64,000 nucleotides of DNA from contig CAJINV010000004.1 of NCBI GenBank assembly GCA_905178155.1, positions 9,386,715-9,450,714 on the forward strand, written 5' to 3'. Under the pieces are notes generated by a model, which was not told the DNA's origin, made no database searches, and worked only from the letters and a program-made list of their open reading frames with translations. The translations under genes were made by a program, and so were the position numbers. Below, in pieces: positions 17,792 through 63,419 of this stretch. This DNA is from Amoebophrya sp. A120 (Eukaryota > Protista > Dinoflagellata). Numbering within the stretch: position 1 is the first letter of the stretch; each line of letters starts with the position of its first letter.

Positions 17792-18997
17792 ATGTCGTTC
17801 TGCAGTTCTTGTCCATGCTTCGCCAGCAGCGAAGGAGACGACGAGAACACCTCCGCCACGGATTTAAAGCAAGTTGTCGTCGATAAGAAAAAAAAGAAGA
17901 CAACATCTCAGAACCGCAAAAAGTCGACCGACAGTGCAGGAGATGCCGACCAGTCGGAAGCCGCGCCGCTATTGAAGAACGACAGCAAGAAACGGGACAG
18001 CAAGGGGACCACGACGTCGTCGACCAAGGGGGAAGGCAAGAATAAACGGTCCTCCAGACCATCAAAAGGCAAGGGCAAGGACCAGCCCCCCGATGAAGAA
18101 CCAGAGGACATCAACGACGAGAGCAACGCAGACACGACAAAAAGAGCCTCTCGCACTTCGTCTTCCGCCAAAACAGCTACACGGTCGTCGAAGAACGACC
18201 GCAGGAGCAGCAGAAAGAAATCGCAAGACGAAGCGGAGTATCAAATGCAAAAATGTCTGGGTCTGGAAACTTGTGATGCTGGGTGGCGTATCATGGGGAG
18301 GCCACAAGTGCTGGGTCAGCATGACAAGTTTCTGAGCTTCTAGGTGTTGCCTACCCTGCATGACAGACTGCGTTTCTGCATGACAGATCAATGGGGCCCT
18401 TAGGTAACGTGCATGACAGATTTAAGAGCCATGCCAGACATGCATGACAAACATGCACTCTTCCAGACCCAGACATATTTGCAATCCATACGGAGTACTA
18501 TGGTGCAACAGAAGAACAGGGAGAGCAAAACGGCAGCGCGGGCACTACTTCTGCGAAGTTGACGAAACACGAAGGATCTTTTTCCGGAAATGACGAGGAA
18601 GGCTGGGACAAGGAGGGGCACGACAAGGAGTACAGTGCGGAGAACAAGAAGGGCGACGAGGATGACTGGGAGGAAGAAGATGATGAATCCTGGCCGGCCT
18701 GGACCCTGCGTTATCCAATGTCAAATCTTAATCTAAATCTTTTTCACCACCACGAGTACGGCCCTCAATTTGTAAGAATGCAGATTTTCAATGCTCTGTC
18801 TATCACCACCTAAGCCTAGTAAGGCTAACATGTGCGCATTACAAATTGAGGGTGGACATCGAGGAGACCAACATGGTGGTGATTTTACACTGCATATGCG
18901 GCGGCAAGCCACCTTGGCACGGGACAAGAGCCTGAAAAAGATAAAGCGGCAGGAGACGGCTTTGCAAAACGCGTTCGCGAAAATTATGGAGGACTAG
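17792..18997 (+). CDS. Unknown charged low-complexity protein with Cys-rich N-terminus
   Basis: Exons 17792-18238, 18496-18711, 18902-18997 join in frame after removing two TIR elements. Confidence 0.7.
18239..18490. mobile_element. Introner-like element, family A
   Basis: tatcaaatgcaaaaatgtctgggtctggaa / ttccagacccagacatatttgcaatccata; TSD CGGAG. Confidence 0.92.
18712..18896. mobile_element. Introner-like element (degenerate TIR)
   Basis: tatccaatgtcaaatc / gattttacactgcata; TSD TGCGT/TGCGG; frame restored. Confidence 0.75.
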
Positions 18998-20116
18998 TAC
19001 AACTAGAAGATAGAGATACAGGAGTTACGTACTTCTACACAAAATTAAAAGGTCACAGTAGCGATCGCTTTTTTACTTCTCGTGTATAACTATGATCGTC
19101 ACGACTCTGTCTCCTGCGCTTATCGTACTTGGAGAAACGACGCTGATAGCGCTGCCTGGGCGGATGCAGAGCGACACTAAGATCGCTTCACTGTTTCTTT
19201 GGTTTTTCGTATTTGCAGTAGCAGTAAGTTCTTCAATATGTTTGTTTACTTATTACCGAATTTGAGTTTGGCAAAACAAAATTATCGGCAGCTCCACCTT
19301 ACTAAACTTATCTGAACGAAATGGAAATTAATCATCGGTAGCGTCTTTGCCTTCGGAGGAGGTGCGCCTTGTGATGGACGTGATTGATCACTCACAGCAC
19401 TCAAATACAATATCATCTAAAATTGATTCTGTTTGACTTAGTTTCTTGTACTAGAGTTCTTGTTTGCGTTGATAGATCATTGGATGACCAGTGCCTGTGT
19501 ACAGTTGGTTTTCATCGCTGGATGTTTATACGGATGAATATTGGAAAAATATATACGAAATAAAAAGCCGCCATTCCTTGTTGTAATGTATGGCAGAAAG
19601 AGCCATGCCCATCCGTATTGTTTCGTCGATTTTGTGGCCTTATTTGTCATCGTCTCACATAAAAAGCAATCGTTTTCTTGAAACTCGAACTCGTTGCTAG
19701 GACTCGTCTTGGTTTCTGTGTCCAAGACGGTTCCCTGTCGATCGTATCATGCTCTGCTCCTGCTCGGGTCGTTGCTTATGTGTCAGAAGCTCTCCGTCGT
19801 AAAAAGGGTACTTATGTCGTGTCATTGTCGTCAGCATCATGCTCTTTGGCGTATCTGTTTGCGCACTTTCGCCATCAAATGACAGCACTCAGCACGACCG
19901 AAATATAATGAACTTGGGAGGTGGATCTTCCTGAGCACTTAGACCGATGAATGATATAATGGAAAATTACAGCTGCGAAGCTCGACAGTAGATGATGAAG
20001 ATGAACAGCCCAGCACTTCGACAAACAAATAAAGCATGACGATGAAAAAGCGTATACTAAACACTCGCTTCTCGAGGTTTCATCAACCATGAACGCAAGA
20101 TAAATAAACTGAAAGA

Positions 20117-22799
20117 ATGGTGTGTTGCGGTTGGTGTTGCGGTGACGACACCGAGCTTCTAGTCGATGCCGATACCCCGGCGAAGGACCAATTGCGCCAG
20201 GTCGTCGTAGACCATTCGAAGGCGGCTGTAGTTGCGGTCGACGTCGACGACAGCACCACGGCATTGGAAAATGTCCCACTGATGGCAGCATCCACAGCTT
20301 TTGAGGAAGCAAGCGCAGCACAGGAAAATCTTACCCCCGACGATGTAGACCCAGGCGGTGTTCTTCCAGCAGCTCCCAAGAAAGAAGATCAAGAGCGCAA
20401 GTCAAAACTGATTCCACCCTTGACTTTTTTACCGACGCCCGCCATCAAAAGCAGTATTCGGACCAGTGCAGGGTCGTCTGTTGCTGCTCCTAATGCAGCA
20501 TCTCGAAGATCGTCTACCAACTCCAACACCACAACAGCATCGACCCAAATAAATCTCCAACCTTCCGGAGATCAGGCGCAGCGCAACAGTGCGGCGGCCC
20601 GTCGGCCTTCCGGGTCGAGTTTTCAGTTGAAGCCGCGGATTTCGGGGTTTAATTTTGTCGGAACTACGCAGAAAAAACCGCTGGGAGGTGAAGCCACCAC
20701 AAGTACCTCAACGATCATCCCCCGGCCCAGTGAGGACGATGAAGATGGTGCAGCTCCTGCTGGTGTTGATCCACGACCTCGAGGAACTACATCCTCAAAT
20801 GCGGGCAGCAAAAAATCTTCCATAACGAGCTACTCGGAGCGAACTACAGGTGGAACAGCTTCGCCACTTAATCTCTCACCCACCGGTGCGAAAAGAACGG
20901 TTACGCAAACGAAGTCGCAATTTTCCTTTGGTGAGGAGGGGGTGTACGGCGAACTCCGCACGACAACCGATGAGCACCACGACAACAACGATCACGAGCA
21001 ATTGCACGACGAAGTGCGGGAACAGATCGCGAACATCGATAAGGTTTTGAAACACGAGGAATCTACGTTGAACAGTCGCGACTTCCGCAGCCTGATTCGG
21101 CGCGAGGAGGAGGACCATTTACGCGGCCTGCCCTCGTTCGTCCACAAAGCGAAAGCGGGGCTGAAAACCGCGGTGACTGGTCTGTCTGAAGTCGGCGACA
21201 GTAGTACAACGACCCGGGATGGTACTAGCTTAACCGACGCATCATCAGTCGGAAGGAGGACCGGCGACGGGGAGAAAATGTTTCGCGACGCGGCGGAAGG
21301 TGTGAAACTGAAAAGTGAGGAAAGCGTTGTTCCACCCAGGAGTGCGAGTGCCAATAGCAGTGGTGGACGTTCTGGTCCGTCTCAGCAAACTACTACACAA
21401 GCATCTTCTATCCCAAGATTGTCCTCAAGGCCGGAAAGTGAAAGAGTTCCCTCGATCCCCAGCGCCGAAGATCGCTCGTTTATCAAATTTCCGTCCGCAT
21501 TGCGGAATGTCAGCGGCGCTTCCGGATCCCGAGCTACGGGTGGTGTCCCGAGTGCGTTCAAGGACTACAGCTCGGCCGGGGATTCGATACTGCGCTCGGA
21601 CGACAGTACTATGATCCCCTCCTCGGGAGTAGCTGCACCTGGTGCACAGCCGACCAGCAGCGGGATGTCGTCCAATATCAGCAGTTATGCCTCGCAGAAC
21701 AGTGTTGACTCGCGAATCACAGAACAAGTATCGCAGATGAACAAAGACAACAAACGGGGTGGAAACATCAATACGAATACGTCGAATAGGCCTAGCTCCT
21801 CGGCCGCCAGCATTCTCGACGACTCCCGCGTGACGGAGCAAACGCAGAACTATCATGCGCAAAATTGATATCTTCGTGCCCGTACTGATTGCACTCGTGC
21901 GTGACAGGTGTGTCTTTTTACTAGTCAGCGACATACTCTTGTTCGTTGATTCTGGAAAACGAAAAGCTTGTGGTGTAATTAGTACAAACTCACACGATAT
22001 TATTTTTGAACTGCATAAGAACAAGCGAGGCACCACCACCACTGCGGCTACATTCACGTTCGGCACTACCGTTCTCTCCGCCCCAGGAACTGCAGCTGGA
22101 CAAAGGGACAAGGAGGGGGGTGCGACGGTAGTACACGGTGTAAAACAAGGAGAACTACACCCGGCAGGGCACACGCATACAGCTACCTTCGGGGATAGCG
22201 ATGTTGAGGCTGCTGCTGAACAACAGCAAAACCGTCAAACCAATAACAGTAAGTCGGAGATGAATTACGTGGAAGGCGAGCACCATCGGGAAAGGGATGG
22301 CTCAACATCAGGGTTCCAGTGGTCATCCTCCTCCTCATCCGCTTCGGGGAATGATTCTAGCAACGGGGTGGACGACGACGTGGCAGCTCCCGTGGGCGTC
22401 GTGAGGAACAAGGAAGCGTCGAATCGCAGGGCAACTCCTGATTTCGGTACAACCACGACTGCTTCGCCTGCTCTCATTCCGTCACCGTCGATACCAACCA
22501 GAACCATCGTCTCGACCAGCCCGAACAGCCGAAAACCCGGTGCAGTTGATGCGCAGGAACGACCCAGAAGTAGAGGAATGACAGCCCCGAAAGGTGTTAG
22601 CATTCCCAGTAATACCATCACATCTATCTCGCCCCACATGTCCGCGGCAGCGCGTCTAGCGGCACGGCGGTCGGCGGCTAGAGCGAAAGCGACTGCAGCT
22701 TCGGGCACTGGGAGAGGAGGTAATGTTCCTACTTCTTCATCTTCTACCGGTGTGGTAGATCATGCTAAGAAGACGTCGGCGGGGGATGATGTTATGTAG
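20117..22799 (+). CDS. Unknown Ser/Thr-rich disordered protein with N-terminal CCGWCC
   Basis: Exons 20117-21850 and 22023-22799 join in frame. Confidence 0.75.
21851..22017. mobile_element. Introner-like element, degenerate family B
   Basis: tatcatgcgcaaaattgatatc / gatattatttttgaactgcata; TSD AGAAC; frame restored. Confidence 0.8.
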
Positions 22800-27190: not shown

Positions 27191-30100
27191 ATGCCACCAC
27201 TCAGCTGCTGCCACGACCGAGGGCCGGACTTATCCGAGACCACCTTCAGGAGCACAGCTCCGTGTAATTCGTCATCTTCGCCCAGCTCTACTAGTTCGTC
27301 GAGCAGTGCGAAAGCAAGATATCGACATGGAGAAATGAGGTTTCGAGCAAGAAGAACCCCCGCCGTTTTAGGTGCAGCAGCCTGTTGGACAACCGCACTC
27401 CTTCCCAACATCCAGGAAATCTTGTTTCAGGCAAATTTGAATTTCCACCAAAATCTTGTCGCCGCAAAGCAGCACAGGAGCACAAGGAAGAGCAGCGAGC
27501 ACCACCAACAGGGACGAGAAAAGCAAGAGTCTCTCCTCGATGCTGCGTTAAGCTCCGTGAAGAAGAGCGCAGAAGACCTTCTCCACTGGCGCGGCGAGGG
27601 ACAAAACTTTCGAGTACACAAAAAAATGATCGTCAAAGTGAAGAAGCTATCCTGTGCAAAAGTATCGTACTCGTAGTAATTGCAATCATGCATGACAAAT
27701 TGCCCATCTTAGGCAAATCAGCATTACAAATTGCACTTTTCTCTTTGAAAAAATTTGTAATGCAATCTATACTAGTACGATACTTTTGTAATGCATAGAA
27801 GCGGAAGAGGAGCAAAAAACGGAGTGGTGCAAGAACCGCCGCGGCTGGTCGAAAATCATCATCCTCTTCCACCTCTGCCGGCAGAGTCTACTCGTCCACC
27901 TCGAGTAGTAGTAGAAGTGGCCGATTGCAAGATGGGCATCGTCAAGATGAACGCCAGCAGCTTCGAAAGATGAACAAGAAACAGAGAAGGAAAGCCGCGA
28001 AAGGAGCTGCTGCAGCAGCAGCAGCAACAGCTGCTGCACAGATGAGAGGTCTTCAGAAGAAGACCTTGAGAAGCGAAAAACTACTAGTACGCGAAGACGA
28101 GAAAGATGGTAGTGGGAGTGAAGAGGAGATTCCGGATGAAGAAGTAGACAAAATGATGAACGAGAATAGCGAAACATTGCATCCGGACGAGCCCGTGGGG
28201 CTGGACGCCACGACAAGCACAACGAGCACTTCCACGACAAGCACAAGCACGACTTCTACTACGACGACGAAAGCCGGAACGTCTACAGGAAGTTTTTCTG
28301 GCGCGTCAATCCGGATGCCGGGCCCTGCCCCTGCGCCAGCTCCGACCTCCTCGTCTTTGGTGCAGCACGATTGGGACGATGGGGACAACTCGACCGAAGC
28401 ACCGCAAAGGACCACTGCAGGAGCAGTACAAATACAAGACGCGGATGACACAAACTCGACAACGATGTCGCCCCCAAAGGATGCTGCTGGACAACATCAA
28501 GGAAGCTCCTCGTCAGCCTACCTCACAACCGCACAAAATAACGTCTTCCACAACCTGACCAACCGGAGCAGCGAGCAGATTGGCGAGTCCATCAGCACAA
28601 CATCAAGTTCTACTACTTCCACAACCGCTGCGACAACGACGACATTAGCTGGCGGCGATTTTTACACGCCTGAGGCGATGGTGCTGGCAAGGAATAATAA
28701 GGCGGGTGACGATGAAGACGATGAAATAAATCGGACACAATCCTACCTGCAGAAGCAAGACGTGGTGATTCGCCGGAGGATTCCGGTGAGTCAATACGGG
28801 CAGAACAACCTCCAAGGGGCTCCTGTGGCGGGTGGACAGCAAGTGCTGCAAGCAGGTGCAGGGCCAAGCTATCCGCAGCCGGCGCTAGTAGTGCAAGGAG
28901 GTAATGGCTACGCTGCGCAGCCACCGCCGGCGCTATACGAAGATCCGCAGTTTCTCGCAACGGCCTCAGACGGGCAGCAGTTGGTGCAGTCGAACCTCCT
29001 CCAGGGAACAGTGAATGGCATGGTCAAAAATGATGTTGTCCCGCAGCAAAATAATCAAGTCCCGCAAGAACAGCAGCAGCTACAATCCCGTCAGCGTGTT
29101 TTCGCCACGGTGAGTACTACCGGAACGCCAAATGGACCGCAGATTCAAGTCCCGCAAATGTACAACAACCCAACGACAACTAAGCAGTTTGCAATCAACC
29201 AAGACGGATTGGAAGATGAGGAACAGCTTGACGACTGGCCAGCAACTACGAACAGCTACGAAGAGGATGGGGAGTACGAGGACAGCTACGATAGCGGGGA
29301 GGACGATTACGATTCCGGTGAAGACGCAGCTTATCTAGAAGAGCAAGGCGATGACAGCGACGAAGACGATAGCACGAATAGTACCACGACGGGGTTTGTC
29401 GACACGAACACGTTTCGGGAAGAATGTACTTGTGTTTTTCTCGACTTTTTTCGGAAGTGAAAAATGGCCATGGCGATTAAGAAGTTGTACGGAACTTCCG
29501 GTATCGCTTTTCGAAGCGGCCTCACCGAGATGAGAAATAAAAAATCGTGCATGATGCGCATGCCATATTACCCATTCTTGATTTGGAATCACAACATACA
29601 ACAGGTGATGCCGCGACACTGGTGGCCGCCTGGAAAGCTTGTGGGATCAAGGACAGTTCGCTGAAAGATTACAAAGCGGGCGAAAACACCAGCGATTTGG
29701 TGTGGGAAGTGAAACAAAGTACTGCTACTGTGTTGAAAAAGTCTGCTCAGATGATTTGCGATTCTGCCAAACCATTTTGACGTGCTCGGAGTCCATTGTG
29801 ATGCCAAGCACACTTTCCTTCTGCAGCCCTAATATTTCTGAATCCAAAAGAAAAAACACATTCTTATCAAATACAGCCCACCTCTGCAACACCATCTGCA
29901 TGTTGGCCTCCGAGATCTGCGCAGACCTCACCGGCCTAGCCGTATCAAATGTAAAAATGTCTGGGTCTGGAAGAATGCAACTTGTGATGCTCATGCTGCA
30001 TTTGGATGTCTAAAACTAAAAAATTTGTGTTGCATGAGCAGCAAAAGGAATCTAATTTCTGCTACGCGGAGAGGGCATTTGTCATGCAGAATAGGCATCA

Positions 30101-30638
30101 AGAACCCCTCAAAAAACCTGTGATGCTAGGTCATGCATCACAGAGACCACGGCTCATGCAAATCGTGCATCACAAGTCTCAGAACCTTCCAGACCCAGAC
30201 ATTTTTACACTTGAGAAGCCGCCCGGCGGTACGACGAAGTTACCTGCTCGCGTTACTGGAACCGGGTGTCGGAGGAATCCATAGTGGTCACGGAAACCAA
30301 CGACTATCGAATAAAAGAGTGTTAACTTTAACGGTTTTCACAGATGGCAGTCATGCATTACAAATTTTGCCTTCCGTGCATGGTACGCAATACAAATTTG
30401 CGCGCCTCTTCAGATGCATCCCTGCATCACAAATTCCGTTAACGTTAGCACTTTTTCTTGTGATAGCGACGCGTCGTCCAAAGCCATGTTCTTCGGGTGG
30501 AGACTGCAGCTGCTGTTCACCTTTGTGTTCCTGCTGTTTTCGGTCAGCGGCTTCGGGGATCATGATCATGGAGGGTTCCTCGGTACTACAGCAGCCTCGT
30601 CGGTCGGAAGGAGCAGGCAAGTGCAGGGGGTGTGGTGA
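27191..30638 (+). CDS. Unknown Thr/Gln/acidic-rich protein with Cys-rich and hydrophobic C-terminus (surface-like)
   Basis: Exons approx 27191-27647, 27803-29425, 29605-29718, 29877-29942, 30222-30304, 30471-30638; three TIR introns plus two inferred GT-AG introns (29426-29604, 29719-29876). Confidence 0.65.
27648..27797. mobile_element. Introner-like element, family B
   Basis: tatcctgtgcaaaagtatcgtactcgta / tactagtacgatacttttgtaatgcata; TSD GAAGC. Confidence 0.92.
29943..30216. mobile_element. Introner-like element, family A
   Basis: Family A TIRs (right end mutated to ttgaga); TSD AGCCG. Confidence 0.9.
30305..30465. mobile_element. Introner-like element, family E
   Basis: tatcgaataaaagagtgttaac / gttagcactttttcttgtgata; TSD ACGAC/GCGAC. 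Confidence 0.85.
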
Positions 30639-51321: not shown

Positions 51322-54300
51322 ATGCCAACAATTATTGCACGTGTTCCTCGATACCCAGGAACAACTTGTTCACCCAAGATGTGGCCCGTCGAACGGGTAC
51401 AACAACGAGGGCCACCAGGTCGTGTACGAACTGTATCTGCTCGTCTCTTGAACAACAGACAAAGGAGCAGGCAGCTCCTCCTCTTCGTACTATCAGCGAC
51501 ACCCAGTGCAGCCACTGCTTTTCTTTCCAGCAGCAGCTCATCCAATCCGCAGAACCAGAACAACACGTCCTCCGCCAACAGCGGCCCTAGAGACCACATC
51601 CTCCGACCCGGCACCACGGCGAGGACGGTGCTGAAGGAGATCACTTGCCCAGTGTTGCGCGCCGTCCCCTACACCAAGAACGACGTGAGCTACATCTACG
51701 GCCACAAATGTCCCTACACGTTTGCCGACACCCGGTCCCGCATCGTTTCCCGGCGCGCGTATCAACAGGCGTACAGGCGTATGCATTGATTGGAAAAGTC
51801 TCGCTCTCGTCGACGTCGCTCCTATTGGTTGTATGATGCATGACAATTTTATTTTCGAATTTCGTCAGACGAGAATCTGGAACGGAACTCAGCATGCGAA
51901 ATCGCGTCGCAAATAAACACATCTGCCATGCATGATTGAAAATTGTTAGTATAACGGGCACGATACTTTTGCGGAGCATACGACTTGGCGGTCCGAGTGT
52001 GAGAGGTGCTTCGTCGGGGGCTTCGTCGCTGTCTGCGGAACAAAAAAATGTGGAGGACCACGGGTACTATGAAGCTGCGTAAAGATGCAAAAGATAAAAG
52101 AGTCAAGTATTTTTTTTGTCGTGTGGGAGGAGGAGGACCACGTGGAACTTATTTCCCATGCCTGCGTTACTGTACTATCGCGAAAAAATCGATAACATCA
52201 TAACAGGCTCACTTCTGCCTGGCCGCTTCCTGAGGCTATTTCCTCTTCCCCCATCACTTCTACTGCTCGCCGAAACTCGCAGCGGTGCGGTACCGTCCCG
52301 GTCGGCTGGAAGCGACGCGTTTCGCCCATTTCTGTCCTGAACAAAGACGAAGTTCTGAACAATTGGATTAACTACAGCGCCGAGGCGCTGCAGGATAATT
52401 TTGACGAAAAAACCGAGAATTATCCCCCGGGACTTTGGGTGCCGCAGGACCAAAATAGGGATGGTTTCTTCATTCCTCCGCCGAGCGCAATTCACACGGA
52501 TTTGATCGAAAAATACAACAGCGCCCCGGTATTGCGCGATCCGAAGAAGTTTGTGGAATTGGTTTTGAAAAAGCCGCCGTACATGTGCAAGATAAAAACT
52601 GTGTTAGTCTAACAAGTCTGTTACTGTTTCTGTAAAAACGCGGAAGTAATAAATGCAACAGAGTTCGTACACTTGCAAATCATGCCAGCAGACCTCTTTA
52701 TTTTCTAATGTGTTTTATTTCGTCACGTACTAGCCATCCATGACAGGTTTTCTCTCTGATGCAGAGCAAACTTGTGATCATGCTGTCACCCCAAGAGTAA
52801 AGTTTAAGTTACACTAACACAGTAGTTTTGTAGTTGGATGGTACATCAACGAAATGCCGGGGTTCGTTGACGATTTGACAGGTGGGCAACATTCAACATC
52901 CGGCGCAGGAGGACAGGGAGGATCCACCTCTTCAGGAAGTGGTCTGCAACGGGGCAGCGCAGGAGGTGGATCAGGCTCTGCAGGAGGTGCAGGAGCAGGA
53001 GGGGTCGCCATTGGTGGTACTAGCGCCTCATCTCCTTCTGGATTGATGTCCGTGGGCCAGGTTTTATCCTCCGTTGGTGGTAGTTCGTCTGGGCAAGGAT
53101 CTTTATCGTCGAACAATGCAGGAGATGGTGCGGGGGAGGGAAGTGACAGTTCAGATTCTACTGCCTCATCCAGCTCGAGCGGCGAGGAAAATCAGGCAGC
53201 AAACGGATCGGGACATCCCTCCGGAACACCACAGAGTACTTCTCCCCCCGCCGCCCCCGCTGTTGATCTTTCCGAGGACGAGGATTTTCTCGGGACTACG
53301 GTGATAATTCCCCCGGGCCCGGGGATGCCGTCGTTTGCTCCCGCAGTCGGCGGCCCGATCCTCCCGGGGGCGCCAGCAGGAGGTGCGGCTGGTGCAGCGA
53401 ATGCGAATGACAATCCGAATGCTGGGAATAATGGTACTAACGACGGCGGTAATGGTTTCAATTTCAGAGGGTTTTTCAACCGACTTTTTCGCAACGGTGG
53501 GGGAAACGCTAACAACAATAATGGGCAACAACAAGAAGTCCCGGCGCCTGGTGCTGCAGCTGCAGCCGGGGCAGCTGGTGCGAATAATGGTGGTCAGTCC
53601 TCCGCTATGAACAATCCGACTCTACCCTCGGCAACAGCTTCCTCACCCGGAGCAGGCGCAAGTGGAACAAGTGACGGCCAGTCACCTAAAGCTCCCTCCC
53701 CCGCGACTCGGGGGGTGGGTTTAGCTGTAAACGCCGGTGTAAATGGAGACGATGATGCAACTGGGATGAACGGCGATCCAACGGACAACGAGAACCAAGA
53801 AGCCGCTGCCACCCCCGGTGCCGTGTTGCATCCCGGGGAGCTATTGAACCCGCTTGTGGACCCTTCGTCCACGGACGAAAACGGAGACAACGCCAACTAC
53901 AAGAATTTTCCGGGTGGGATTTCGGCCAAGGAGTACTGGGAGCTGGCGGAGAGGGGGCAGGGGTTCCGTGAGGGAAGACCCAGCTGGCTTTGCTCGATTT
54001 GTATATGATTTTAGACAGGAAAGTGTTTTCATTTTTTTCGAGCCGGAGTTGATGGCGGTGTGCAGTTTTTTGATGTACTTTTTGTTTTTGCCGGCCCGAG
54101 ACGGACAGGAAAAACGAAAATGTTGTTGCTGTCGTGCTGGAACTTTGTTCTTTGTGATCGCAGATGAACAATAAGACAACAAATACTACAGCCCTCGACA
54201 TCATGGAGGACCCGGTGAAACCGAAGGGCAGTCGGGTACTGGATTGCTTTGAGCGCGAGTATTTGCTCCAATCCTTAGCAAGTGACCCCCGACACCCGCT

Positions 54301-56996
54301 TTCCCGTGAGCCAGTGCATACACAAGAAGTCGAGCCTTGCACCGAATTGCTGGAGGAGAAAAGAGGTACAGTTATCATGACGTTGTGTAGTTCTTGGTTG
54401 GGATCGTGCATGATAAGAACTTACAGCTCAAAGTCTTCAAATAAGATGTGGTGTGCAGGTGCACTCAAATATCGATTTATTTTTATGATACATGTTCTAT
54501 CTACCTGCCTTGCTCATGACGCAGTTCCTACCTTGCTCGTGCGCATACGTACGTAGATCTCTTGACATCCGTCTTGAGGTTTAGGGTCGGAGCGCTCTCA
54601 GCACTGCTGAAGCTTTAGAACCAGATGGGAGTGCACACCCGGACGGATCAGAGCAAAGGCTTTTTGATAGCGCTTTTTTACAAATGGCTTCATAATTCGC
54701 TTACTCTGCTGCCCCCCTTTTTCCTTTCCCCCGGGCCCAACTGGCACCAAGCAGTTTTTCTTTTGCGTGTCCTCATCCGGACACATCGATCTCGGTCTAG
54801 GTTTAGGTTTAGGTATAGGACCATCATATGTCGTCCGCCGCGGCCGCTGTCCCGACCACCCACCGCTCCAGCGACGAAACATCTTCTTCCCGCCTACCGT
54901 CCCGGAACGCAGCGGCGATGGGTTTCAGGGTTTTAGGGATTTAGGGTTCTAGTCAAATTTTATGATACATGTTCTATCTAAAAATTTGTAAATGCCAGGC
55001 ATCGAGTCCGGCGAGGTTGTGGTGGACAACACGGGGAAGGAGCTGTACAACAAAATCAAGTTTGAGCGCTGGGAACTTCTGATGTACCACCACTTCCCGG
55101 AGACGCTGTGGAAGTGCGGCGGCGCACTCGTCCTTTGGTTGCTCGTGACCTACCTCGCGTGGCTTGGGGTGAAACGGACATTTTCCGTGAAAATCAAGAA
55201 GGACGAAGAATTGAGCCAGCAAGTGATCGAAAAATCTTTAGCGGACCCGAACAAACTGTTTCCATTGCCATCGTTTTATATCAACGTGAAGGGCAGCAGC
55301 TCCTGCGAAGGATCTTCTACTTCATGGGACGAACAGGGATCATTGAATGCGAAGATGATGAACCAGCGAAATGTAGCGCCGGAACAATTTGCCACAAGTA
55401 GAACGCGGCCAGCTGCTCTAGTTGACATCAATGCCGAAGGACCACAATTAGAGAACCATGTCGAGGACGACGAAAGCGAAACGTTGGCCGCCAGCAAACC
55501 GTTGCTTGACGCCAACAACAGAAAAAACGCTGTCGCGGCCCCAAAAGAGAACGACGACACCTGCAACACAGCGATCAACAGTAGTTCACCAGGGCCAAAA
55601 GATGCAGCATCTTCGTCAGAGGAGTACCAATTGGCGCTGCAGAATTGGCTCGAGAAGGAGCAGAAAGAGCTGGAGGACCACGAGAAGGATGTCGTGGAGC
55701 AGAACAATATCCTGTGCAAAAGTATCGTACTCGTATAAATGCAAGTCTTGCATTGCAAATCCTTTTCCTATTCCTAAGGTAAATCCGCATTGCAAATTTT
55801 ATTTCTCATGCTGAGGGAATTTGTGATGCATTTATACGAGTGCGATACTTTTGCAATTCATAAACTACTACCTGATGCCGTGCGACGGAGCCAGGGGCAT
55901 CCGGATATTGACGAGTGAAAATGGCTTTTCTGAAGAACAATTACAACCGAAGTTTAATATTTTGCCAATTCGAGAGAAGGAGCCTCAACCTGTGGTCGCG
56001 CATTTTGAGTCCTCTTCAACTTCTGCCATCTCGCAGCTCTCCATTCTCCGACCGAGGCTGCCGAACACGAAGCAGGCCGACCGAGGGCCTCATGTTTTTA
56101 AACCACGGAACAACTACCAACCAGCAGCAGGAGCTGGAGTAACACCTCAAGGGAACAACGGAAGTTCCTTTTTCGAGAACCCGACCCCCTTCGCAGGTCT
56201 AACTAATCCGGGGGCCACCTCGTCGTCTTCGGGAGGAGTAGAGGCGAACAGTGCGCTGGATATCCGCAACGCTATCCATTGCATCAAAAGTTTGATCGTA
56301 CGGGCGGCCGTATTGGTTGTCACAATATTGCATGACAGACCTCGATTCTCTTAGGCGGGAAAAAGCATTTTACAAATTCGAGTTCTACTCTGTGGCTTCT
56401 TGAAAAAAATTGTGATGCAAATTCTGCAGGAGCAGGCGCGGCATGCACGGCACATCAACTTTTGCAACGCATAAGCGCCGACCCAAACAGCACCATTCCG
56501 AACCGCGTATTCTACTGTATGGGGCTCTCAAACGTTACGGTTACATTCTCAACTGTTACATAAATTTGTCATGCAAAAATACCATCATCATCCTCACGAT
56601 CAAGCTGCTCCGCATGACAAATCTGCGAAGGGCTAGACCGCGCCTAAATCTGTGCGGAATTTGTAATGCTACAGTTGCAGCTTTCCCCTTTTCACTCTTC
56701 CCTTTCTTGCATTACAAACTCATGTGACAGTTGAGAATGTAACAATTGAGAACGCCATATACTGGAAGCAGCACCGCGAGCTGTGCACGTTCGGGAACCG
56801 CTTGGTCCTGCGGGTTTTGGTGTGGTTGCTGTTGATTGCGCTGCATTGCTTCATTGTCTGGAAAATTTTCAAAGTCTCCCAGCGAGTTGTGCAGTTTCAG
56901 CACGAGCTGAAGGAGCCTTTCGCGTGGCGGAAAATCACGCTGCGGGATCAGTTTCCCTGGGGCTACGACGTCTGGAAGGGCTACTCGTCTTTGTGA
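51322..56996 (+). CDS. Membrane-anchored U-box domain protein (putative E3 ubiquitin ligase)
   Basis: GT-AG intron 54001-54191 yields LCSISLDIMEDPV..CFEREYLLQSL..HPLSREPV (U-box pattern). Other GT-AG introns 52079-52206 and 54366-54998; five TIR introns; two TM segments; Gly/Ser/Asn-rich linker; start codon uncertain. Confidence 0.7.
51780..51980. mobile_element. Introner-like element, degenerate family B
   Basis: tatgcattgattggaaaagtctcg / cacgatacttttgcggagcata; TSD decayed, but the frame is consistent. Confidence 0.65.
52582..52840. mobile_element. Introner-like element, degenerate family D
   Basis: aaaactgtgttagtctaac / gttacactaacacagtagtttt; direct repeat GTACAT at 52579 and 52841; removing 262 nt restores the frame. 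Confidence 0.75.
54504..54957. mobile_element. 454-bp TSD-flanked insertion with telomere-like repeats, inside a GT-AG intron
   Basis: 23-bp direct repeat ttttatgatacatgttctatcta (54481-54503, 54958-54980); degenerate TTTAGG(G) tracts. Confidence 0.7.
55708..55862. mobile_element. Introner-like element, family B
   Basis: Family B TIRs; TSD AACAA/AACTA. Confidence 0.9.
56273..56473. mobile_element. Introner-like element, B-related
   Basis: tatccattgcatcaaaagtttgat / atcaacttttgcaacgcata; TSD AACGC/AGCGC. Confidence 0.8.
56518..56759. mobile_element. Introner-like element
   Basis: tatggggctctcaa..gttacattctcaactgttacat / atgtgacagttgagaatgtaacaattgagaacgccata; TSD TACTG. Confidence 0.88.
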
Positions 56997-58233
56997 GCTG
57001 GTGGGGTGTTAGAGGTCGTGCAGGCAGTTTGCGTCGATGGTGCACTTGTGTTGTAGTCGAGATGCTTGTCTTCACAAGGAAGATTAAGATTTTGTTTAAC
57101 ATACTTTTCTTGAGACAAGAATACAGTTAATGCCGACAGAAAATTTTGGATTTGGGCCTGGAACTATAAAGACGCAGTTTTCGCACGACCACGCCTTAGC
57201 TTTGATTATAGAATAAAACTATTCTTCGTTCAGCCTTTGAACTCATTTTCCGAGCCGCTTTGGAAGTTTTGCAAAATCAGGCCAAACGTCGAGGAAGACT
57301 TCACCCAACTCGTGGGATTGGTAGCGCAGACAAAAATCTTCTGGCACCTCCTTGACGCTTTCGCGTTCCGATGAAATGCCACAATTGACATTTTTTGTTC
57401 TGGCCTTGTGCAAAGTAGGCCGCAACATGAATACAACGCCATCGAATCCGCGGCCTGCTGAAGATATGCCACTGCGACAGGCACACCTGTTTCGGTGAAC
57501 TTGAGCATCAGGCGTGTGCTTGCAAGTGCACACGACATGATCTGAGAAAAAATACAGAGCTGCCGGCGCGGCAGCGTGTGACGGTGTAGTTCTTGTCGGC
57601 GTTCTTTATTTCGCAATCGCCATGTAGATGCGAAGTCTTCCGTGCGGGAAGTGACATCAAGTTCTTGATCTGCTCCTTTACACGTTGATGCGATCATGAT
57701 CATGAAGACCATGAATCGGTGAGTATAAATATGTTGTGCATAATAGGAGCTGGTCTACTTCTGATGTGATCTTTCTGCACATTCATAAGTACATATCAAC
57801 CAGCACGGCGCACTTCTTTGATAAAGCAAAAACACTCCCCACGTGGTGGTCTTTAGGACGTGTACTTCGCCGCATCTCAGTCATGGTCTTCATGCCCCAC
57901 TGCTGGAAACCCCGGGCCGATCATGTAGCATGACCTCATGAGCCAGCAGGAAGACACTCCAAGCAGGAGATATTAATACCTTCTTTGTTAATCGTATAGT
58001 ACGATGGGCAGACCGAGGACTTCTACTTCGATTCTGTGCATTGATTTGACATTTCCGGCACGCCACGACCTGGAGGAGAGGTGGAACAAAAACCCCCGGC
58101 GCGTTTGTAATCGTAAGAGGGCAAGTACATGATTGATCGTCAACATCACCGCCGCGAGATGTAGAAACATGGCAACACGTCGTCGTTCCACGATCGTCGC
58201 TTTCATCTTCGCCGTCAAATATAAAATGGGACG

Positions 58234-61200
58234 ATGATGATGATCTCCAGGTGGCTTCTCCTGGAGAACGAAGAAGCGCGCTTTTCTTCAGAAGGATCGA
58301 AGATGACGCGAGAATCACAATCTCGGCCATGTCCATCATCACGACGGTGGAAAATGAATAAAATGCCGCACAGCTGCTCGTGCACCGGCGTGGTCTACAA
58401 TTTCTTCATGCGGCTGTTTAGAAAGAATAAGCATCTGATTGGTCAGTTTGATGATCCTGATGACCGACTTGAACAGGGTCGTGGCGCCGCAGGTGGTCGA
58501 GGAAAGAACTTCTACTTTCACGACTTCTTGCGCTGTCAACATGATTTGTTCAACATCTACAAGCGACGACTTGCTCCTCCTTTGTTCTTCCCCGTCTTGA
58601 AGCTCCGACAACGTCGTCCACGAGAAGAACTTCTTCGCGGCGGTCGTCTTGCGTCACCCGCTCCCGTGGCCCCACGGCCCTTGCAGTTGTGTAAGAAGAC
58701 CTCTAGAAGAAGTTCTTGTGCTCCTGCCGCTTATCATGTACTGCCAGGACGAGGTGGTGGACGTCGACGGCCGCGTGCGCAGGAGGTTATCTTCTATGAT
58801 TACTACCGTCTGCTCCTTCTCCTCGTCGGGGCGTGCGCAGTTGCGTTTTTCACCTTCTACGTGCTCTATCAAATGTAAAAATGTCTGGGTCGGGAAGAAT
58901 TCATGTTTGTCATGCTTGTCTGGCATGACTGTTAAATCTGTCATGCACGTTACCCAAGAGCTCCGTTTTTCTGTGATGCAGAAACGCAGTTTGTCATGCA
59001 GAATAGGCAACACCTAGAAGCTCAGAAACTTGTCATGTTGAGCCAGCACTTGTGGCCTCATCATGAGACGCCACCCAGCATCACAAGTTTCCAGACCCAG
59101 ACATTTTTACATTTGATATGCTCGTCTCGGTTCTGATTTCTTGTTCCGTGGTCGTCGTCGCACCGGAGCAACAAGGCATTAGAATTGATGACCAGCACGA
59201 GCAGGACCACGCTGGTAGTTCCACGGTCATCATGCACACAACACCTCGTCCAGCACCAGCACCTCCGGACGGCCGCTCATATTACAGCTGCTTCAGCATC
59301 AGCCTCGGCCTTCACCTTGCAGCATTCGCTTTGGACACGACGTCCCGGTCCCGGCTTGTTCAAGAACAACTAGAAGCAACAGAAGGCACAGCACATCAGG
59401 GTCGTGAAGATGTTCAGGCGGAGGACGGGGAGGACGAGATATTAACGATGTTGAGTGCAACCCCGCATCCAGGGCAGGCGCAGAGCACTGCTCCTGGGCA
59501 CGATCTGCGCTTTGAGTCTTTTACACAAGAGGGACGAGATATCCCACGAAAAAACTGTTTCACTGTGATGATTTTGCAAGAAACGCATCACAAGTTTGTT
59601 TACACATGACACAGAAAATTTGCCATGCGCGTTTTTCCCATAGAGAAAAACACGGTTGGAACTCCAATGCTCTATGCAGGTGTAGCAAGGCAAATAGTTC
59701 TGTGTTCCATTTTCTGCATCACAGGTTAACAGCGAAACAGTTTTCTCTTGCGATACGAGAAGCACGAGTGGCCGTAGAGGACGTCGTCGAGGAAGAAGCG
59801 GTATGCATTGCAAAAGTATCGTACTCGTAGTATTAGTAATGGTAGGCATGCATTACAAATCCGATTCTTAAGGCAAATCCGCATAACAAATTCCGTCTGG
59901 CATGCTAAGCTAATTTGTAATGCAATTTGTACTAGTACGATAGGATACTTTTGCAATGCATAAGCGGACCAAAGCTACGACGGCGCGGCTGCCATGGCCA
60001 AATCCGATTCCAGACAAAATGGATATCAAATGTAAAAATGTCTGGGTCTGGAAGAGTCATGCGGGTTTTGCATGACACAGAGGGTCCGGCATGGAAGCTC
60101 TAGCATCACAGGTTTCGAGAAGCTTCCGCAATGCCGAATCCGCATGACAAATGCCCCACTTTGGTGACAAAAAGTGGGCAGCTTTTGCTGCCTATGCATG
60201 AGAGACTTTTATGTGTTATGAAATGCGCATCACAAGTTGCATTATTCCAGACCCAGACATATTTGCAATGCATAATGGAGCAGGAGGAACTTCTACTACA
60301 CCTAGTAATTATGATGTTGCGCCACCTCCTAGCACATTTTTTTCTTCTTCACCGACCCGGGGTGATGATGAAGAAGAAGAACAAGAAGAACGCGACACTG
60401 CTGGTTCGGCACAAGTAGAACATTTTGTTCCCGAGGATGCGGCTGCCAGTGAGACTCTCCGGGCAACGGTTCACAAGAGTAAAGGGGGCGACTATTTCGA
60501 GAAAGATATCGTCGATGATTACCTGGTACCAAATGCAAGAAATATGTCTGGGTCTAGAAGATTGATGCCAGGTTTGTCATGTATCTAATTCGTAGCTCCT
60601 AGACCTTGCCTGGCCCGCGATTGACTCCAGGGCAGCCGGATGGCTGTGACCTGGCTAGAAAGGGCTTCGTCGATCGATTGCGCCAGTGAGGCCTTGTGTT
60701 CCGGCTCGATGGAGGGCGGGACCTGCGCCGGCCACAGGCGCTACCCAACCAACCAACCAACCAGACACGAGCTGCAATCTTCCAGATCCAGACATATTTG
60801 CAATCCATACCTTGTGAAGGGGGAAGAACCCACTTGGGCCGACGCAGCGCATCTGTTGACGATATTGCATTAAAAAGTGCCCCCGCCACCCCCAAAGTTG
60901 CAATAACTTGTGATGCGAAGTTTCCAAATGAAAAGTTTTTGTCATGCATGAAAGGAGTTAGTTGTAGGAATCTTTCTGTTTCTGATGCAGAGTCTAGCTC
61001 TAGGCGTGCACGGCATCGCTTGCATGACAAGCGCCGCGCTTGCTGAAGCTGAGATCTTTTGCAATAGTACAAACTTTTGCTATTCACGATTATATAATGA
61101 TCTGTGACGCTGATAGATGCAAGAGGGCGAGCGTTTCATTTTGCATGGCTTACAATACAAATGCTCCCAAGTTCTGGGGTCCTCGTGGGGGCATTTTTCA

Positions 61201-63419
61201 TTGTGATAGACGAGAACACCTATTCACTTTGCGCGAGCCAGCTTGTTCCGCGAGCAAGTGCAGCGGAGGGTGGCACGCCGTATCCTGGAAATGGGGGAGG
61301 AAGAGGAAAAGAACGCTATCAAATGTAAAAATGTCTGGGTCTGGAAGAGGAGAAGTTTGTCATGCACATTTTCCATGATCCATCCATGATGTCTGTGATG
61401 TACTTATGCCATAGCATCACAGATTTTCTGAGCGCCTATCGATGCACATCCTGCATGACAAATGCCCTCTACGCGTAGCCAAATTTTTTGACTCCTCTTG
61501 CTGCTCATGCAATACAGATTTTTTTAGCATCCAAATGCAGCATCACAAGTTCAGAATCTTCCAGACCCAGACATTTTTGCAGTTCATAGACGCGCTGTAC
61601 GACCTAAAGAAAGAACTGTACAAGGCGTACGCCGGGCGGCCGATGTATGGAGGCGTCAGGATTGAAATCGTCAAAGTTGAAATAACTTGCACATGCATAA
61701 AATCGATAACAGTTGCAAGCCGAATTTCCAAGCGGTGCATGACAAATTTTCCGAGCACCGGAATCCAATTTGTCATGCTGTTTGGGCACAGACGGCTGCT
61801 TTTGTCATGCTACTCCCAAACAGGCTGACAGTCGGCCTCGCTTGCCATCCCGGCAAGACAGGCGTTGCATGCCTTGTATTTTATGCATGACAAACTATTT
61901 CTATTTCAACTTTGACGATTTCAATTCTGACGCTTCCATACGATGCAGGATCAAGTGGACGCGCGGCAGCGCAACAAGGAGCTGGTGCGCATCCAGCGGG
62001 GCCTGTGCGAGTGGGTGAAGTTCGGCGTCGAGTATGCGCATCAGAAGTGGGTGACGGATCGCCCCGGGTCACAGCAGTTGTGGTTTGGGGGTCTTGAGGC
62101 CGTCACAAACACGAAGCAGTTTATAAACACCAAATATGGGCAGTATGCGGAGAACATCGAGCAGTGCCGGCAGGCCTGCACGGAGCACCCGGAGTGCACC
62201 CATTGGACCTACATCCTATGAACTGCAAAAGTATCGTACTCGTATAAATGCATTACAAATTTGCTCAGCATCAGAAATAAAATTTGTAATGCGGATTTAG
62301 ATTCAGAAAAAAAATTGTAATGCATGACTGCAATTACTACGAGTACGATACTTTTGCACAGGATACATCCACAAGTATGGGGATAACAGGGATTTTGCAC
62401 GTGACGGGGTCCTCGACGCCGTCTTTCCCAAATGGTTTCGCTGCTTCTTGAAAAAGTTCAACCCGCGCAACCATGACCATGTACACGACTACGGGTTTGG
62501 GTTTGGCCGACTAGGTATCCTGTGCAAAAGTATCGTACTCGTAGCAATTGCATTTATGCATTACAAATTTCTTTTTCAAGGTAAATCAGCATTACAAATT
62601 TCATTTGTAATGCTAAGTCAATTTGTAATGCAATTTATACTAGTACGATACTTTTGCAATGCATAGTAGGCGATTTTAGTGCGGGGATGACCACCTACCG
62701 CGGGATACACTTCGCCGACTTTAACCCGAACGTGAGGTCGGCGAGTGGCGTATCTTGCACTCCCACAGCGAACCATTATGCATTGCAAAAGCATCTTCGC
62801 ACTCGTCGTATAAATGCATTACAAATTTTCTCAGCGTGAGAAATGAAATTTGTAATGCTGATTTAGCTTAAAGAAAAAGATTTGTATATGCATGATTTTT
62901 ACAACAATAACAATTACTACGAGTTGTGCGATACTTTTGCAGTTCATAACCATGCTCCAGAGACAACTCGCTGCAAACTGATTTTACCGAGCACCAAAAC
63001 CAAAATCAAGGACCATGGCGACGTGTACAAGACAAGATCCACGTACTATTACAATGAAAAATGCTGCCACCCCCAAACTTAGGAGCATTTGCATTGCAAA
63101 CCTTTCCAAATGAAACATTCGCCCTCTTGCATCAATCAGTATCACAGATTTTCGATCGTGAATAGCAAAAATTTGTATTGCAAAAGATCCCAGCAAGAGC
63201 GGCGCTTGTCATGCAAGCGATGCGATATTCGTTTACGTCTAGACTCTGCATCAAAACACTCCTAGTCGGTCGCGGTCCTTTCATGCATGACAAAAAGTTT
63301 TCATTTGGAAACTTCGCATCACAAATTATTGCAACTTTGGGGGTAGGGGCATTTTTCACTGCAATACGTACCTTCACCTGATGAACCGGCACGGGTTTGA
63401 GGATCCTAGTCTCGTGGAT
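58234..63419 (+). CDS. Membrane protein with PAN/apple-like domain (3'-incomplete; 13 TIR introns)
   Basis: Twelve consecutive TSD-guided joins keep the frame. TM LLLLLVGACAVAFFTFYVLVSVLI; EQCRQACTEHPECTHWTY..RCFLK. Start codon uncertain. Confidence 0.7.
58867..59118. mobile_element. Introner-like element, family A (reverse orientation relative to the 18239 copy)
   Basis: Family A TIRs; TSD TGCTC. Confidence 0.93.
59540..59755. mobile_element. Introner-like element, D-related
   Basis: tatcccacgaaaaaactgtttcactgt / acagcgaaacagttttctcttgcgata; TSD CGAGA. Confidence 0.88.
59802..59962. mobile_element. Introner-like element, family B
   Basis: Family B TIRs; TSD AGCGG. Confidence 0.92.
60024..60274. 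mobile_element. Introner-like element, family A
   Basis: Family A TIRs; TSD ATGGA. Confidence 0.93.
60527..60809. mobile_element. Introner-like element, family A (TAC start, distinct interior)
   Basis: Family A TIRs; TSD CCTGG/CCTTG; internal (CCAA)n. Confidence 0.85.
60863..61208. mobile_element. Introner-like element, family G
   Basis: tattgcattaaaaagtgccccc / gggggcatttttcattgtgata; TSD GACGA. Confidence 0.9.
61317..61588. mobile_element. Introner-like element, family A
   Basis: Family A TIRs; TSD AACGC/GACGC. Confidence 0.9.
61646..61940. mobile_element. Introner-like element, family C
   Basis: tatggaggcgtcaggattgaaatcgtcaaagttgaaat / atttcaactttgacgatttcaattctgacgcttccata; TSD CGATG. 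Confidence 0.93.
62217..62365. mobile_element. Introner-like element, family B
   Basis: Family B TIRs; TSD CATCC. Confidence 0.93.
62516..62665. mobile_element. Introner-like element, family B
   Basis: Family B TIRs; TSD CTAGG/GTAGG (can be read as GT-AG). Confidence 0.92.
62777..62948. mobile_element. Introner-like element, family B
   Basis: Family B TIRs; TSD ACCAT. Confidence 0.9.
63047..63366. mobile_element. Introner-like element, family G (reverse orientation relative to the 60863 copy)
   Basis: tattacaatgaaaaatgc / gcatttttcactgcaata; TSD CGTAC. Confidence 0.9.

What the first reader, a model, noticed from the sequence alone, without database searches (positions are those of the whole stretch)
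18239..63366. Orientation-independent introns: the same element works in both directions
Seen: all host genes are on the + strand, yet family members occur in both orientations. The 18239-18490 copy is the reverse complement of 58867-59118 along its interior. 9526 and 61317 are opposite to 29943 and 46998. 40535, 47920 and 62217 are opposite to 27648, 50331 and 55708. 60863 is opposite to 63047. Known: spliceosomal introns are polar (donor, branch point, acceptor). Inference: the removal signal is symmetric, such as a TIR hairpin that brings the two TSDs together. That points to a modified spliceosome or an endonuclease/ligase route.
Basis: partly seen in the sequence, partly recalled or inferred. 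Interest (0 to 1): 0.82.

Follow-up and report, generated by a model that had tools for sequence, protein, structure and literature searches.

The report
Jumping introns spliced either way round
In a parasitic marine protist, copies of an already described family of transposon-like introns sit in genes facing either way and are missing from the transcripts in both cases, likely because their mirror-image ends show the cell's ordinary splicing machinery the same short signals in either direction.

Summary
Confirmed. The window is Amoebophrya sp. A120 DNA (three annotated proteins match 100%), and the repeats are the introner elements of Farhat et al. 2021: TAT...ATA inverted ends, 5-bp target duplication. 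I count 40, all inside + strand reading frames. Every opposite pair named aligns as a reverse complement with the ends trimmed off. Transcript-like contigs lack 19 copies (15 as joints, 4 by exact contig length), including both orientations of two families. Annotated proteins cross 12 more; 9 rest on frame restoration alone. Both-way introners are already reported for Aureococcus and Polarella; I found no orientation statement for A120. New here: copies with imperfect duplications fit one cut register, after target base 4, so the intron reads N-UAU...AUA-NNNN. That register matches the host's own GT-AG introns (GTAY; A at -7 in 7 of 7), and G is enriched at -1. Two copies with no stable predicted hairpin are still removed. 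Removal is therefore polar on the RNA, and the symmetry comes from the mirror ends. A relaxed spliceosome is likely (0.6); a hairpin nuclease/ligase remains open (0.25). Efficiency per orientation was not measurable. The scan noted similar introns in other dinoflagellates.

The parts
18239..18490 (.). Introner, family A, orientation 1; perfect 5-bp TSD
   Evidence: joint skipping 257 nt (= length+5) in 3 of 4 runs; reverse complement of 58867
58867..59118 (.). Introner, family A, orientation 2
   Evidence: crossed by annotated protein P0006; no RNA joint displayed
44862..45132 (.). Introner, family A, orientation 1
   Evidence: frame restoration only
47339..47618 (.). Introner, family A, orientation 1; TSD mismatch at base 5
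   Evidence: removed by exact contig length, 2075 = 2075
48118..48378 (.). Introner, family A, orientation 2
   Evidence: removed by exact contig length
46332..46589 (.). Introner, family A, orientation 2; decayed TIR, TSD mismatch at base 1
   Evidence: contig pieces 46327 to 46591 contiguous; hairpin z -1.1
32980..33239 (.). Introner, family A, orientation 2
   Evidence: joint in 4 of 4 runs
9526..9790 (.). Introner, family B, orientation 1, in the PI3K-like kinase domain
   Evidence: crossed by P0001
61317..61588 (.). Introner, family B, orientation 1; TSD mismatch at base 1
   Evidence: crossed by P0006
60024..60274 (.). Introner, family B, orientation 1
   Evidence: crossed by P0006
29943..30216 (.). 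Introner, family B, orientation 2
   Evidence: joint in 4 of 4 runs
46998..47260 (.). Introner, family B, orientation 2
   Evidence: removed by exact contig length
40535..40687 (.). Introner, family C, orientation 1; TSD mismatch at base 1
   Evidence: frame restoration only
47920..48068 (.). Introner, family C, orientation 1
   Evidence: removed by exact contig length
62217..62365 (.). Introner, family C, orientation 1
   Evidence: frame restoration only
62777..62948 (.). Introner, family C, orientation 1
   Evidence: frame restoration only
27648..27797 (.). Introner, family C, orientation 2
   Evidence: joint in 4 of 4 runs
50331..50479 (.). Introner, family C, orientation 2; TSD mismatch at base 3, so cut after base 3-5
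   Evidence: joint in X1 and X3
55708..55862 (.). Introner, family C, orientation 2; TSD mismatch at base 4, so cut after base 4-5
   Evidence: joint in X3; P0007 agrees
59802..59962 (.). Introner, family C, orientation 2
   Evidence: crossed by P0006
62516..62665 (.). Introner, family C, orientation 2; TSD mismatch at base 1
   Evidence: frame restoration only
60863..61208 (.). Introner, family D, orientation 1
   Evidence: crossed by P0006
63047..63366 (.). Introner, family D, orientation 2
   Evidence: frame restoration only; opposite to 60863
48674..48882 (.). Introner, family F, opposite to 52584
   Evidence: joint in X1 and X3; interior score 52 reverse vs 20 forward
52584..52840 (.). 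Introner, family F, decayed ends
   Evidence: crossed by P0007
18712..18896 (.). Introner, decayed TIR; TSD mismatch at base 5, transcript keeps the right-hand base, so cut after base 0-4
   Evidence: joint in 4 of 4 runs, 4 letters fit either side
51780..51980 (.). Introner whose flanks share only 2 of 5 bases; annotated protein excludes a cut after base 5
56273..56473 (.). Introner with no stable predicted hairpin; TSD mismatch at base 2
   Evidence: joint in X3; z -0.3
56518..56759 (.). Introner
   Evidence: joint in X3
21851..22017 (.). Introner, decayed TIR
   Evidence: joint in 4 of 4 runs
30305..30465 (.). Introner; TSD mismatch at base 1
   Evidence: joint in 4 of 4 runs
32755..32908 (.). 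Introner
   Evidence: joint in 4 of 4 runs
33316..33498 (.). Introner
   Evidence: joint in 4 of 4 runs
2108..2421 (.). Introner, same orientation as 61646
   Evidence: frame restoration only
61646..61940 (.). Introner
   Evidence: crossed by P0006
6201..6344 (.). Introner
   Evidence: frame restoration only
9141..9461 (.). Introner
   Evidence: crossed by P0001
44468..44574 (.). Introner, shortest (107 bp)
   Evidence: frame restoration only
59540..59755 (.). Introner
   Evidence: crossed by P0006
60527..60809 (.). Introner; TSD mismatch at base 4
   Evidence: crossed by P0006
8791..8974 (+). Canonical GT-AG intron (comparison set, 1 of 7)
   Evidence: P0001
29426..29604 (+). Canonical GT-AG intron
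   Evidence: joint in 4 of 4 runs
29719..29876 (+). Canonical GT-AG intron
   Evidence: joint in 4 of 4 runs
31299..31447 (+). Canonical GT-AG intron, weakly supported
   Evidence: one contig of depth 2.3
52064..52206 (+). Canonical GT-AG intron
   Evidence: P0007
54001..54191 (+). Canonical GT-AG intron
   Evidence: P0007
54366..54998 (+). Canonical GT-AG intron
   Evidence: joint in X3; P0007
43045..50739 (+). Host gene, 1901-aa frame across 9 introners, with both orientations of families A and C in one transcript
58225..63629 (+). Host frame of 826 aa across 12 introners; first 8 junctions in annotated partial protein P0006
1..10335 (+). Host gene, PIKK-type kinase (PI3_PI4_kinase and FATC domains), 3029-aa frame
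51322..56993 (+). Host gene P0007, 1208 aa, 5 introners and 3 canonical introns

Best explanation
These are the MITE-like introner elements of Amoebophrya A120: they lie in + strand genes in both orientations and are removed from transcripts either way, likely by a relaxed U2-type spliceosome that reads short signals carried identically by the two mirror-image ends. Shown: TIR/TSD anatomy, both orientations, and removal of exactly element plus 5 nt. Inferred from five imperfect-TSD RNA junctions, one contig join and three annotated proteins: the cut falls after target base 4, so the intron runs N-UAU...AUA-NNNN. Inferred: the TIR's first three bases supply +2 to +4 of the host 5' site (GTAY in the host's GT-AG introns). 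Their reverse complement supplies -7 to -5 of the host 3' site, and the A at -7 is a candidate branch nucleotide. The +1 G and the AG are no longer required, with a residual preference for G at -1. Because a TIR element shows the same two ends whichever way it inserts, a polar machine sees no orientation. The hairpin may help bring the ends together but appears dispensable. Spread is likely by DNA transposition with an unidentified transposase.
For: Skip length equals element+5 at 15 of 15 RNA junctions tabulated. One 2075-nt contig matches the model with six elements removed, to the base. The same contigs also lose GT-AG introns, so they behave as spliced RNA. Allowed cut positions: 18712 0-4, 55708 4-5, 50331 3-5, 56273 2-5, 30305 and 46332 1-5; the only shared value is 4. 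Register 4 is the only one of six with no mismatch to three annotated proteins (0 of 2580 aa; others 1-3). It also scores best against the host's canonical introns at both ends (5' -0.30 vs -2.6 to -7.4; 3' -2.07 vs -4.6 to -9.2), with N-TAY in 39 of 40 and A at -7 in 40 of 40. Canonical introns: GTAY in 6 of 7, A at -7 in 7 of 7 against a background of 0.47. G at target base 4 in 20 of 39 vs 10.6 expected, P 0.0011; a one-sided bias is not what a symmetric transposase target would give. A120 keeps 83 of 89 spliceosome proteins and U2, U4, U5, U6, lacks detectable U1 and lacks snRNP27 (Farhat section 10). Loss of SNRNP27K goes with +4 U in yeasts (abstract). Giardia spliceosomal introns use [G|C]TATGT and a branch point fused to the 3' site (passage).
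Against: No lariat, branch point or intron product was observed, so the chemistry is untested. The single register rests on two RNA junctions (18712, 55708) from one study plus gene models; 18712 could also be cut after base 3, which would give a GT start. The canonical set has only 7 introns and the -7 A was noticed after the fact. The G enrichment is 1 of 44 cells tested (about 0.05 after correction). TAT/ATA was part of my search rule, so its conservation is partly built in. At register 4 only 12 of 40 start with G, and 1 of 39 is GT-AG, so the spliceosome would have to be unusually permissive. U1 was not found in A120. Hairpins are strong in 36 of 39, with a weak G.U over A.C excess on the transcribed strand in one of three windows (54 vs 34, P 0.04; not significant at 16 or 45 nt). 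Nine copies, including 63047, 62217 and 40535, have no transcript or protein support.
Confidence: 0.6

Rival explanations
1. A separate, structure-guided endonuclease/ligase route, as proposed for euglenid nonconventional introns, cuts at a fixed offset from the TIR hairpin.
For: z < -2 in 36 of 39 copies; TIR bases 9-15 predicted paired with the far end in 36 of 39. No GT-AG at the inferred register; U1 not found. Euglena introns use a defined, offset paired signature (abstract). A fixed 1-nt/4-nt offset is compatible with a ruler.
Against: 56273 and 46332 are removed in transcript contigs with no stable predicted hairpin, and the terminal three pairs are predicted unpaired in 10 of 19 transcript-supported copies. 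Sense and antisense folds are equally stable (20 vs 20, P 0.66). TIR bases 4-7 pair in only 18-24 of 39. The match of the inferred register to the host's canonical consensus at both ends would be a coincidence.
Confidence: 0.25
2. A relaxed spliceosome picks a different register within each 5-bp duplication, using whichever GT, GC or AG is at hand, as in Polarella introners; there is no single register.
For: Polarella classes use 2-5 frames and both orientations (passages). 18712 would start with GT at register 3. Perfect TSDs hide the register at 9 of 15 RNA junctions.
Against: Only 5 of 39 copies have any GT-AG, GC-AG, GA-AG or AT-AC pair at any of six registers. All informative junctions share register 4.
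Confidence: 0.12
3. The elements are not spliced; the joined forms come from DNA alleles or cells that lack them.
For: The RNA status of runs X1-X4 is the tool's guess, and no DNA control run was laid.
Against: The same contigs lack GT-AG introns. All 9 elements in 17100-34300 are skipped. Joined forms mix left and right TSD letters in one consistent way. Retention would break the frame in 39 of 39.
Confidence: 0.03

Closest known systems
Introner elements (IEs) among the non-canonical introns of Amoebophrya sp. A120 (Farhat et al. 2021, PMC7789003; sections 5, 10, 11, 12, 16, keyword passages and part 2 of 5 of the supplement read; figures not visible)
   Same: Same organism (P0001, P0006, P0007 are named A120 proteins, 100% identical). 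Same end motif (TAT, seven bases, A run), 3-5 nt direct repeats, hairpin, about 240 nt. These are those elements. Gozashti et al. 2025 (PMC12130899; passages and 22 of 58 A120 rows of one dataset) list many as TIR DNA introners of unknown superfamily.
   Different: The text I could search says nothing on element orientation (4 uses of the word, all about genes) and leaves the border 'unknown' within the repeat. Here both orientations are shown removed and one cut register is inferred.
Both-orientation TIR introners of Aureococcus anophagefferens and Polarella glacialis (Roy et al., bioRxiv 10.1101/2020.10.14.339549, passages; Huff et al. 2016 not held, known only as cited there)
   Same: Non-autonomous TIR elements with TSDs that make introns in either orientation, with part of the splice signal from the TIR and part from the TSD.
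   Different: Those use GT/GC/GA 5' sites and AG 3' sites, often in several frames, and classes 6, 8 and 10 are reported biased to one orientation. Here neither terminal dinucleotide is fixed, the TSD is 5 bp, one register fits, and the split is about even (11:12 in four families).
Nonconventional introns of euglenids (Nomura et al. 2025, PMC12501133, abstract and passages; review PMC11282704, part 2 of 5)
   Same: No GT-AG; paired ends offset asymmetrically from the cut sites; proposed MITE origin.
   Different: The Euglena signature is a paired CDG/CHG motif with a purine at the exon start, required by experiment. Here the ends are TAT/ATA, match the host's canonical consensus, and pairing appears dispensable in some copies.
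Spliceosomal introns of Giardia with a fused branch point and 3' site (PMC10711314, passages)
   Same: 5' motif with a tolerant +1 followed by TAT; branch signal within about 8 nt of the 3' end.
   Different: Giardia keeps AG and a long fixed motif; its introns are few and are not mobile elements.

Membership tests
Amoebophrya A120 introner elements | Occurs in the A120 genome | tested here: met
   three host proteins 100% identical to named A120 proteins
Amoebophrya A120 introner elements | Inverted repeat starting TAT, seven bases, then an A run | tested here: met
   T39 A38 T38 at bases 1-3 and A 35-36 at bases 11-13 of 39; TAT/ATA was partly a search criterion
Amoebophrya A120 introner elements | 3-5 nt direct repeat at the borders | tested here: met
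   5 of 5 in 29, 4 of 5 in 10, 2 of 5 in 1 of 40
Amoebophrya A120 introner elements | Removed from transcripts at non-canonical sites | tested here: met
   19 of 40 in transcript-like contigs; 5 of 39 have any canonical-type pair
Amoebophrya A120 introner elements | Repeated in families | tested here: met
   five families with opposite copies in 64 kb
MITE / TIR DNA transposon | TIR, constant-length TSD, short, non-coding interior | tested here: met
   107-346 bp; in-frame stops in 39 of 39
MITE / TIR DNA transposon | Cognate transposase, or an empty orthologous site | not testable with these tools
   no whole genome held; Farhat found no transposase in A120; paralog P0008 is colinear across the 51780 junction at protein level only
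U2-type spliceosomal intron | GT(GC)-AG ends | tested here: not met
   1 of 39 GT-AG at register 4
U2-type spliceosomal intron | Inner 5' and 3' site positions like the host's canonical introns | tested here: met
   register 4 best at both ends against 7 canonical introns; small set
U2-type spliceosomal intron | Lariat intermediate and snRNP dependence | not testable with these tools
   only assembled contigs covered the locus
Euglenid-type nonconventional intron | Pairing of the ends required for removal | tested here: inconclusive
   strong hairpin in 36 of 39, absent in two removed copies; prediction only
Euglenid-type nonconventional intron | CDG/CHG signature near the ends | tested here: not met
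   end composition is TAT/ATA
Structured or self-splicing RNA family (Rfam) | Match to a curated model | tested here: not met
   0 matches at gathering score in the window

The most novel reading that the evidence does not exclude
Amoebophrya A120 runs a spliceosome that has dropped the GT-AG rule and reads only UAU at +2 to +4 and an AUA whose first A, 7 nt from the 3' end, is the branch point. These two signals are reverse complements, so any transposon with TAT...ATA ends and a 5-bp duplication is a ready-made intron at any coding site, in any phase and either orientation. That would explain how tens of thousands of such introns arose in one lineage.
Probability: 0.4. Interest if true: 0.8.

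Novelty: already known. Interest (0 to 1): 0.5.

Why it matters
How Amoebophrya removes its roughly 60% non-canonical introns has been open since 2021. The elements are published, and both-way insertion is known in other introners, so the finding as written is not a new kind of system. The register result turns the open question into sharp predictions: intron 5' end one base before TAT, 3' end four bases after ATA, branch near -7, and equal handling of both orientations. It also gives annotators a rule for placing borders in this genome. If the spliceosome reading holds, it shows a splice code whose 5' and 3' signals are reverse complements, which removes the usual orientation barrier to intron gain from transposons.

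Tried and rejected
No whole genome is held, so no genome-wide orientation count was possible. No listed holder is on record as RNA. In one search, 20 of 35 joints were not displayed, so the junctions in 58-64 kb are not shown by RNA; 9 of the 15 displayed joints link different repeat copies and were set aside as artefacts. A protein search with the exon after 62038 found nothing, which leaves 62217, 62516, 62777 and 63047 on frame restoration alone. Of 46 scan rows at score >=8 I kept 38 and dropped 8 (19589, 22970, 40987, 58732, 62232, 62332, 62562, 62593) as low-scoring or as internal overlaps of real copies; 52584 and 51780 were added by hand. Compensatory change as proof of an RNA hairpin was rejected: TIR bases 8-12 covary, but shared ancestry and transposition predict the same. 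The strand test (G.U vs A.C) was significant in one of three windows only, and sense and antisense energies did not differ. Pairing of TSD with TSD or across the cut was not supported (flank positions at or below shuffle). Rfam: no match. Literature: six searches that returned papers or a nil result on introners, orientation, Amoebophrya splicing and euglenids or branch points showed no paper on orientation or cut register in A120. Huff 2016 was not held. Figures 3, 4, S19-S25 of Farhat, files 13-14 and 36 of 58 A120 rows of Gozashti 2025, and subscription papers were not seen and could bear on the novelty of both points.

Full report
Observation. Self-comparison of the window shows families of 107-346 bp repeats in both orientations. 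A scan for TAT...ATA ends with a 5-bp duplication gave 38 hits at TIR score >=12 against none in three simulated windows. After dropping 8 weak or overlapping rows of 46 and adding two decayed copies by hand, I count 40 elements; 39 of them cover 13.5% of the window. Because the ends are palindromic, I tested orientation on interiors only. A further opposite pair, 48674/52584, scores 52 vs 20. Families split 3:4, 3:2, 4:5 and 1:1.

Host genes. Removing each element plus 5 nt joins broken + strand frames into long ones: 3029 aa, 1901 aa across nine elements, and 826 aa across twelve. Retention would add a stop in 39 of 39. Exon queries returned named Amoebophrya sp. A120 proteins at 100% identity, and the spliced model reproduces P0001, P0006 and P0007 at 2580 of 2580 residues. 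These are gene models, which the authors say were built from transcriptomes, so they are supporting rather than independent evidence.

Removal in both orientations. Contigs of four runs (two samples, one study; RNA status is the tool's guess) skip all 9 elements in 17100-34300. Two of these runs skip five more as listed joints and one as adjoining pieces in 44001-64000. Skip length equals element+5 in 15 of 15. One 2075-nt contig matches the model length exactly only if 46998, 47339, 47920 and 48118 are also removed. The same contigs lack GT-AG introns, so they behave as spliced RNA. Family A is removed in orientation 1 (18239, 47339) and orientation 2 (32980, 46332, 48118). Family C is removed in orientation 1 (47920) and orientation 2 (27648, 50331, 55708). 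For families B and F one orientation is seen in contigs and the other in annotated proteins. For family D, 60863 is in an annotated protein and 63047 rests on frame restoration alone. Contigs cannot measure efficiency, and the raw RNA runs did not cover the locus.

Where the cut falls. Perfect duplications hide the border; imperfect ones reveal it. The transcript keeps the left-hand base at target positions 1, 2, 3 and 4 (30305 and 46332, 56273, 50331, 55708) and the right-hand base at position 5 (18712). At 51780, where the flanks share only 2 of 5 bases, the annotated protein also excludes a cut after base 5. The single register that fits all is after base 4, and it is the only one of six with no mismatch to the three proteins. 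The intron is then N-UAU...AUA-NNNN: one base outside the 5' TIR and four outside the 3' TIR. This is an inference from few junctions, and per-intron registers are not excluded (18712 would begin GT at register 3).

Mechanism. The seven GT-AG introns in the window begin GTAY in 6 of 7 and have A at -7 in 7 of 7 (background 0.47; noticed after the fact). At register 4 the elements read N-TAY in 39 of 40 and A at -7 in 40 of 40, and this register scores best against the canonical set at both ends. G is enriched at target base 4, which is both the last exon base and the last intron base: 20 of 39 vs 10.6 expected, P 0.0011, one of 44 cells. A symmetric transposase target would not give a one-sided bias, so this looks like selection by splicing. 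Farhat et al. report a nearly complete spliceosome in A120 without detectable U1 and without snRNP27. SNRNP27K loss is linked to +4 U (abstract), and Giardia shows that a tolerant +1 before TAT and a branch signal fused to the 3' site are possible in spliceosomal introns. I therefore favour a relaxed U2-type spliceosome (0.6). The machine stays polar; the element looks the same from both directions because TAT and ATA are reverse complements. The branch at -7 is a prediction, not a result.

Against this reading. Only 12 of 40 start with G at that register and 1 of 39 is GT-AG. Hairpins are strong in 36 of 39 (15 shuffles each), and G.U exceeds A.C on the transcribed strand in the outer 30 nt (54 vs 34, P 0.04) though not at 16 or 45 nt. 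A structure-guided nuclease/ligase like that proposed for Euglena stays possible (0.25). It is weakened by 56273 and 46332, which are removed without a stable predicted hairpin, by terminal pairs predicted open in 10 of 19 transcript-supported copies, and by equal sense and antisense folding energies.

A trace of polarity remains. Where the two ends differ at TIR base 4, C.C on the transcribed strand outnumbers G.G 14 to 3 (nominal P 0.013; copies are related, so this is overstated).

Comparison with what is known. The elements are the A120 introner elements of Farhat et al. 2021 (same organism, same end motif), listed as TIR DNA introners by Gozashti et al. 2025. Introners that work in either orientation are reported for Aureococcus and Polarella, with near-canonical sites, and the 2022 survey allowed for opposite-orientation copies. 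I found no statement on orientation or on a cut register for A120 in the text and supplement text I could search; the figures were not visible. Earlier scan notes describe similar hairpin introns in other dinoflagellates; I did not test them and they did not change my reading.

Verdict. Removal in both orientations and the inferred register are added details. The register makes an open question about this genome directly testable, hence interest 0.5.

Noticed in passing
window 13079-17014 (+): Intact-looking LINE-type retrotransposon frame, 1312 aa, with endonuclease and reverse transcriptase domains, preceded by a long A run near 12905-12934. It holds no introner.
   Followed up: partly
window 41319-42823: A 466-aa frame with no Pfam match lies between two identical 25-bp direct repeats (41319-41343, 42799-42823); possibly an inserted mobile unit.
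   Followed up: no
window 63420-63600 and 24129-24168: A copy related to 2108/61646 with no right end found by the scan, and a lone TIR fragment between genes.
   Followed up: partly
inside 39 elements: A short subterminal motif, GCAT[CGT]AC[AC], occurs 59 times forward and 56 times reversed in 8.65 kb of elements against 12 times in the other 55 kb; candidate transposase-binding repeat.
   Followed up: partly
TIR base 4 of all copies: C.C mismatches on the transcribed strand outnumber G.G 14 to 3, hinting at a residual orientation preference when the two ends differ.
   Followed up: partly
window 54366-54998: This canonical intron holds telomere-like TTTAGG runs between two identical 23-bp repeats (54481-54503, 54958-54980).
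   Followed up: no
window 1-10335: The kinase frame is open from base 1 (3029 aa), while the annotated protein P0001 starts at 7129; the public model is probably split.
   Followed up: no
window 52064-52206: This GT-AG intron also reads G-TAC...ATA-ACAG with 4 of 5 matching flanks, so it may be an old introner that has become canonical.
   Followed up: no
run X7 at 60022-60055: About 80 raw RNA reads carry the same 30-nt TIR in other flanks while the rest of the locus is uncovered, so a related sample shares this end motif.
   Followed up: no
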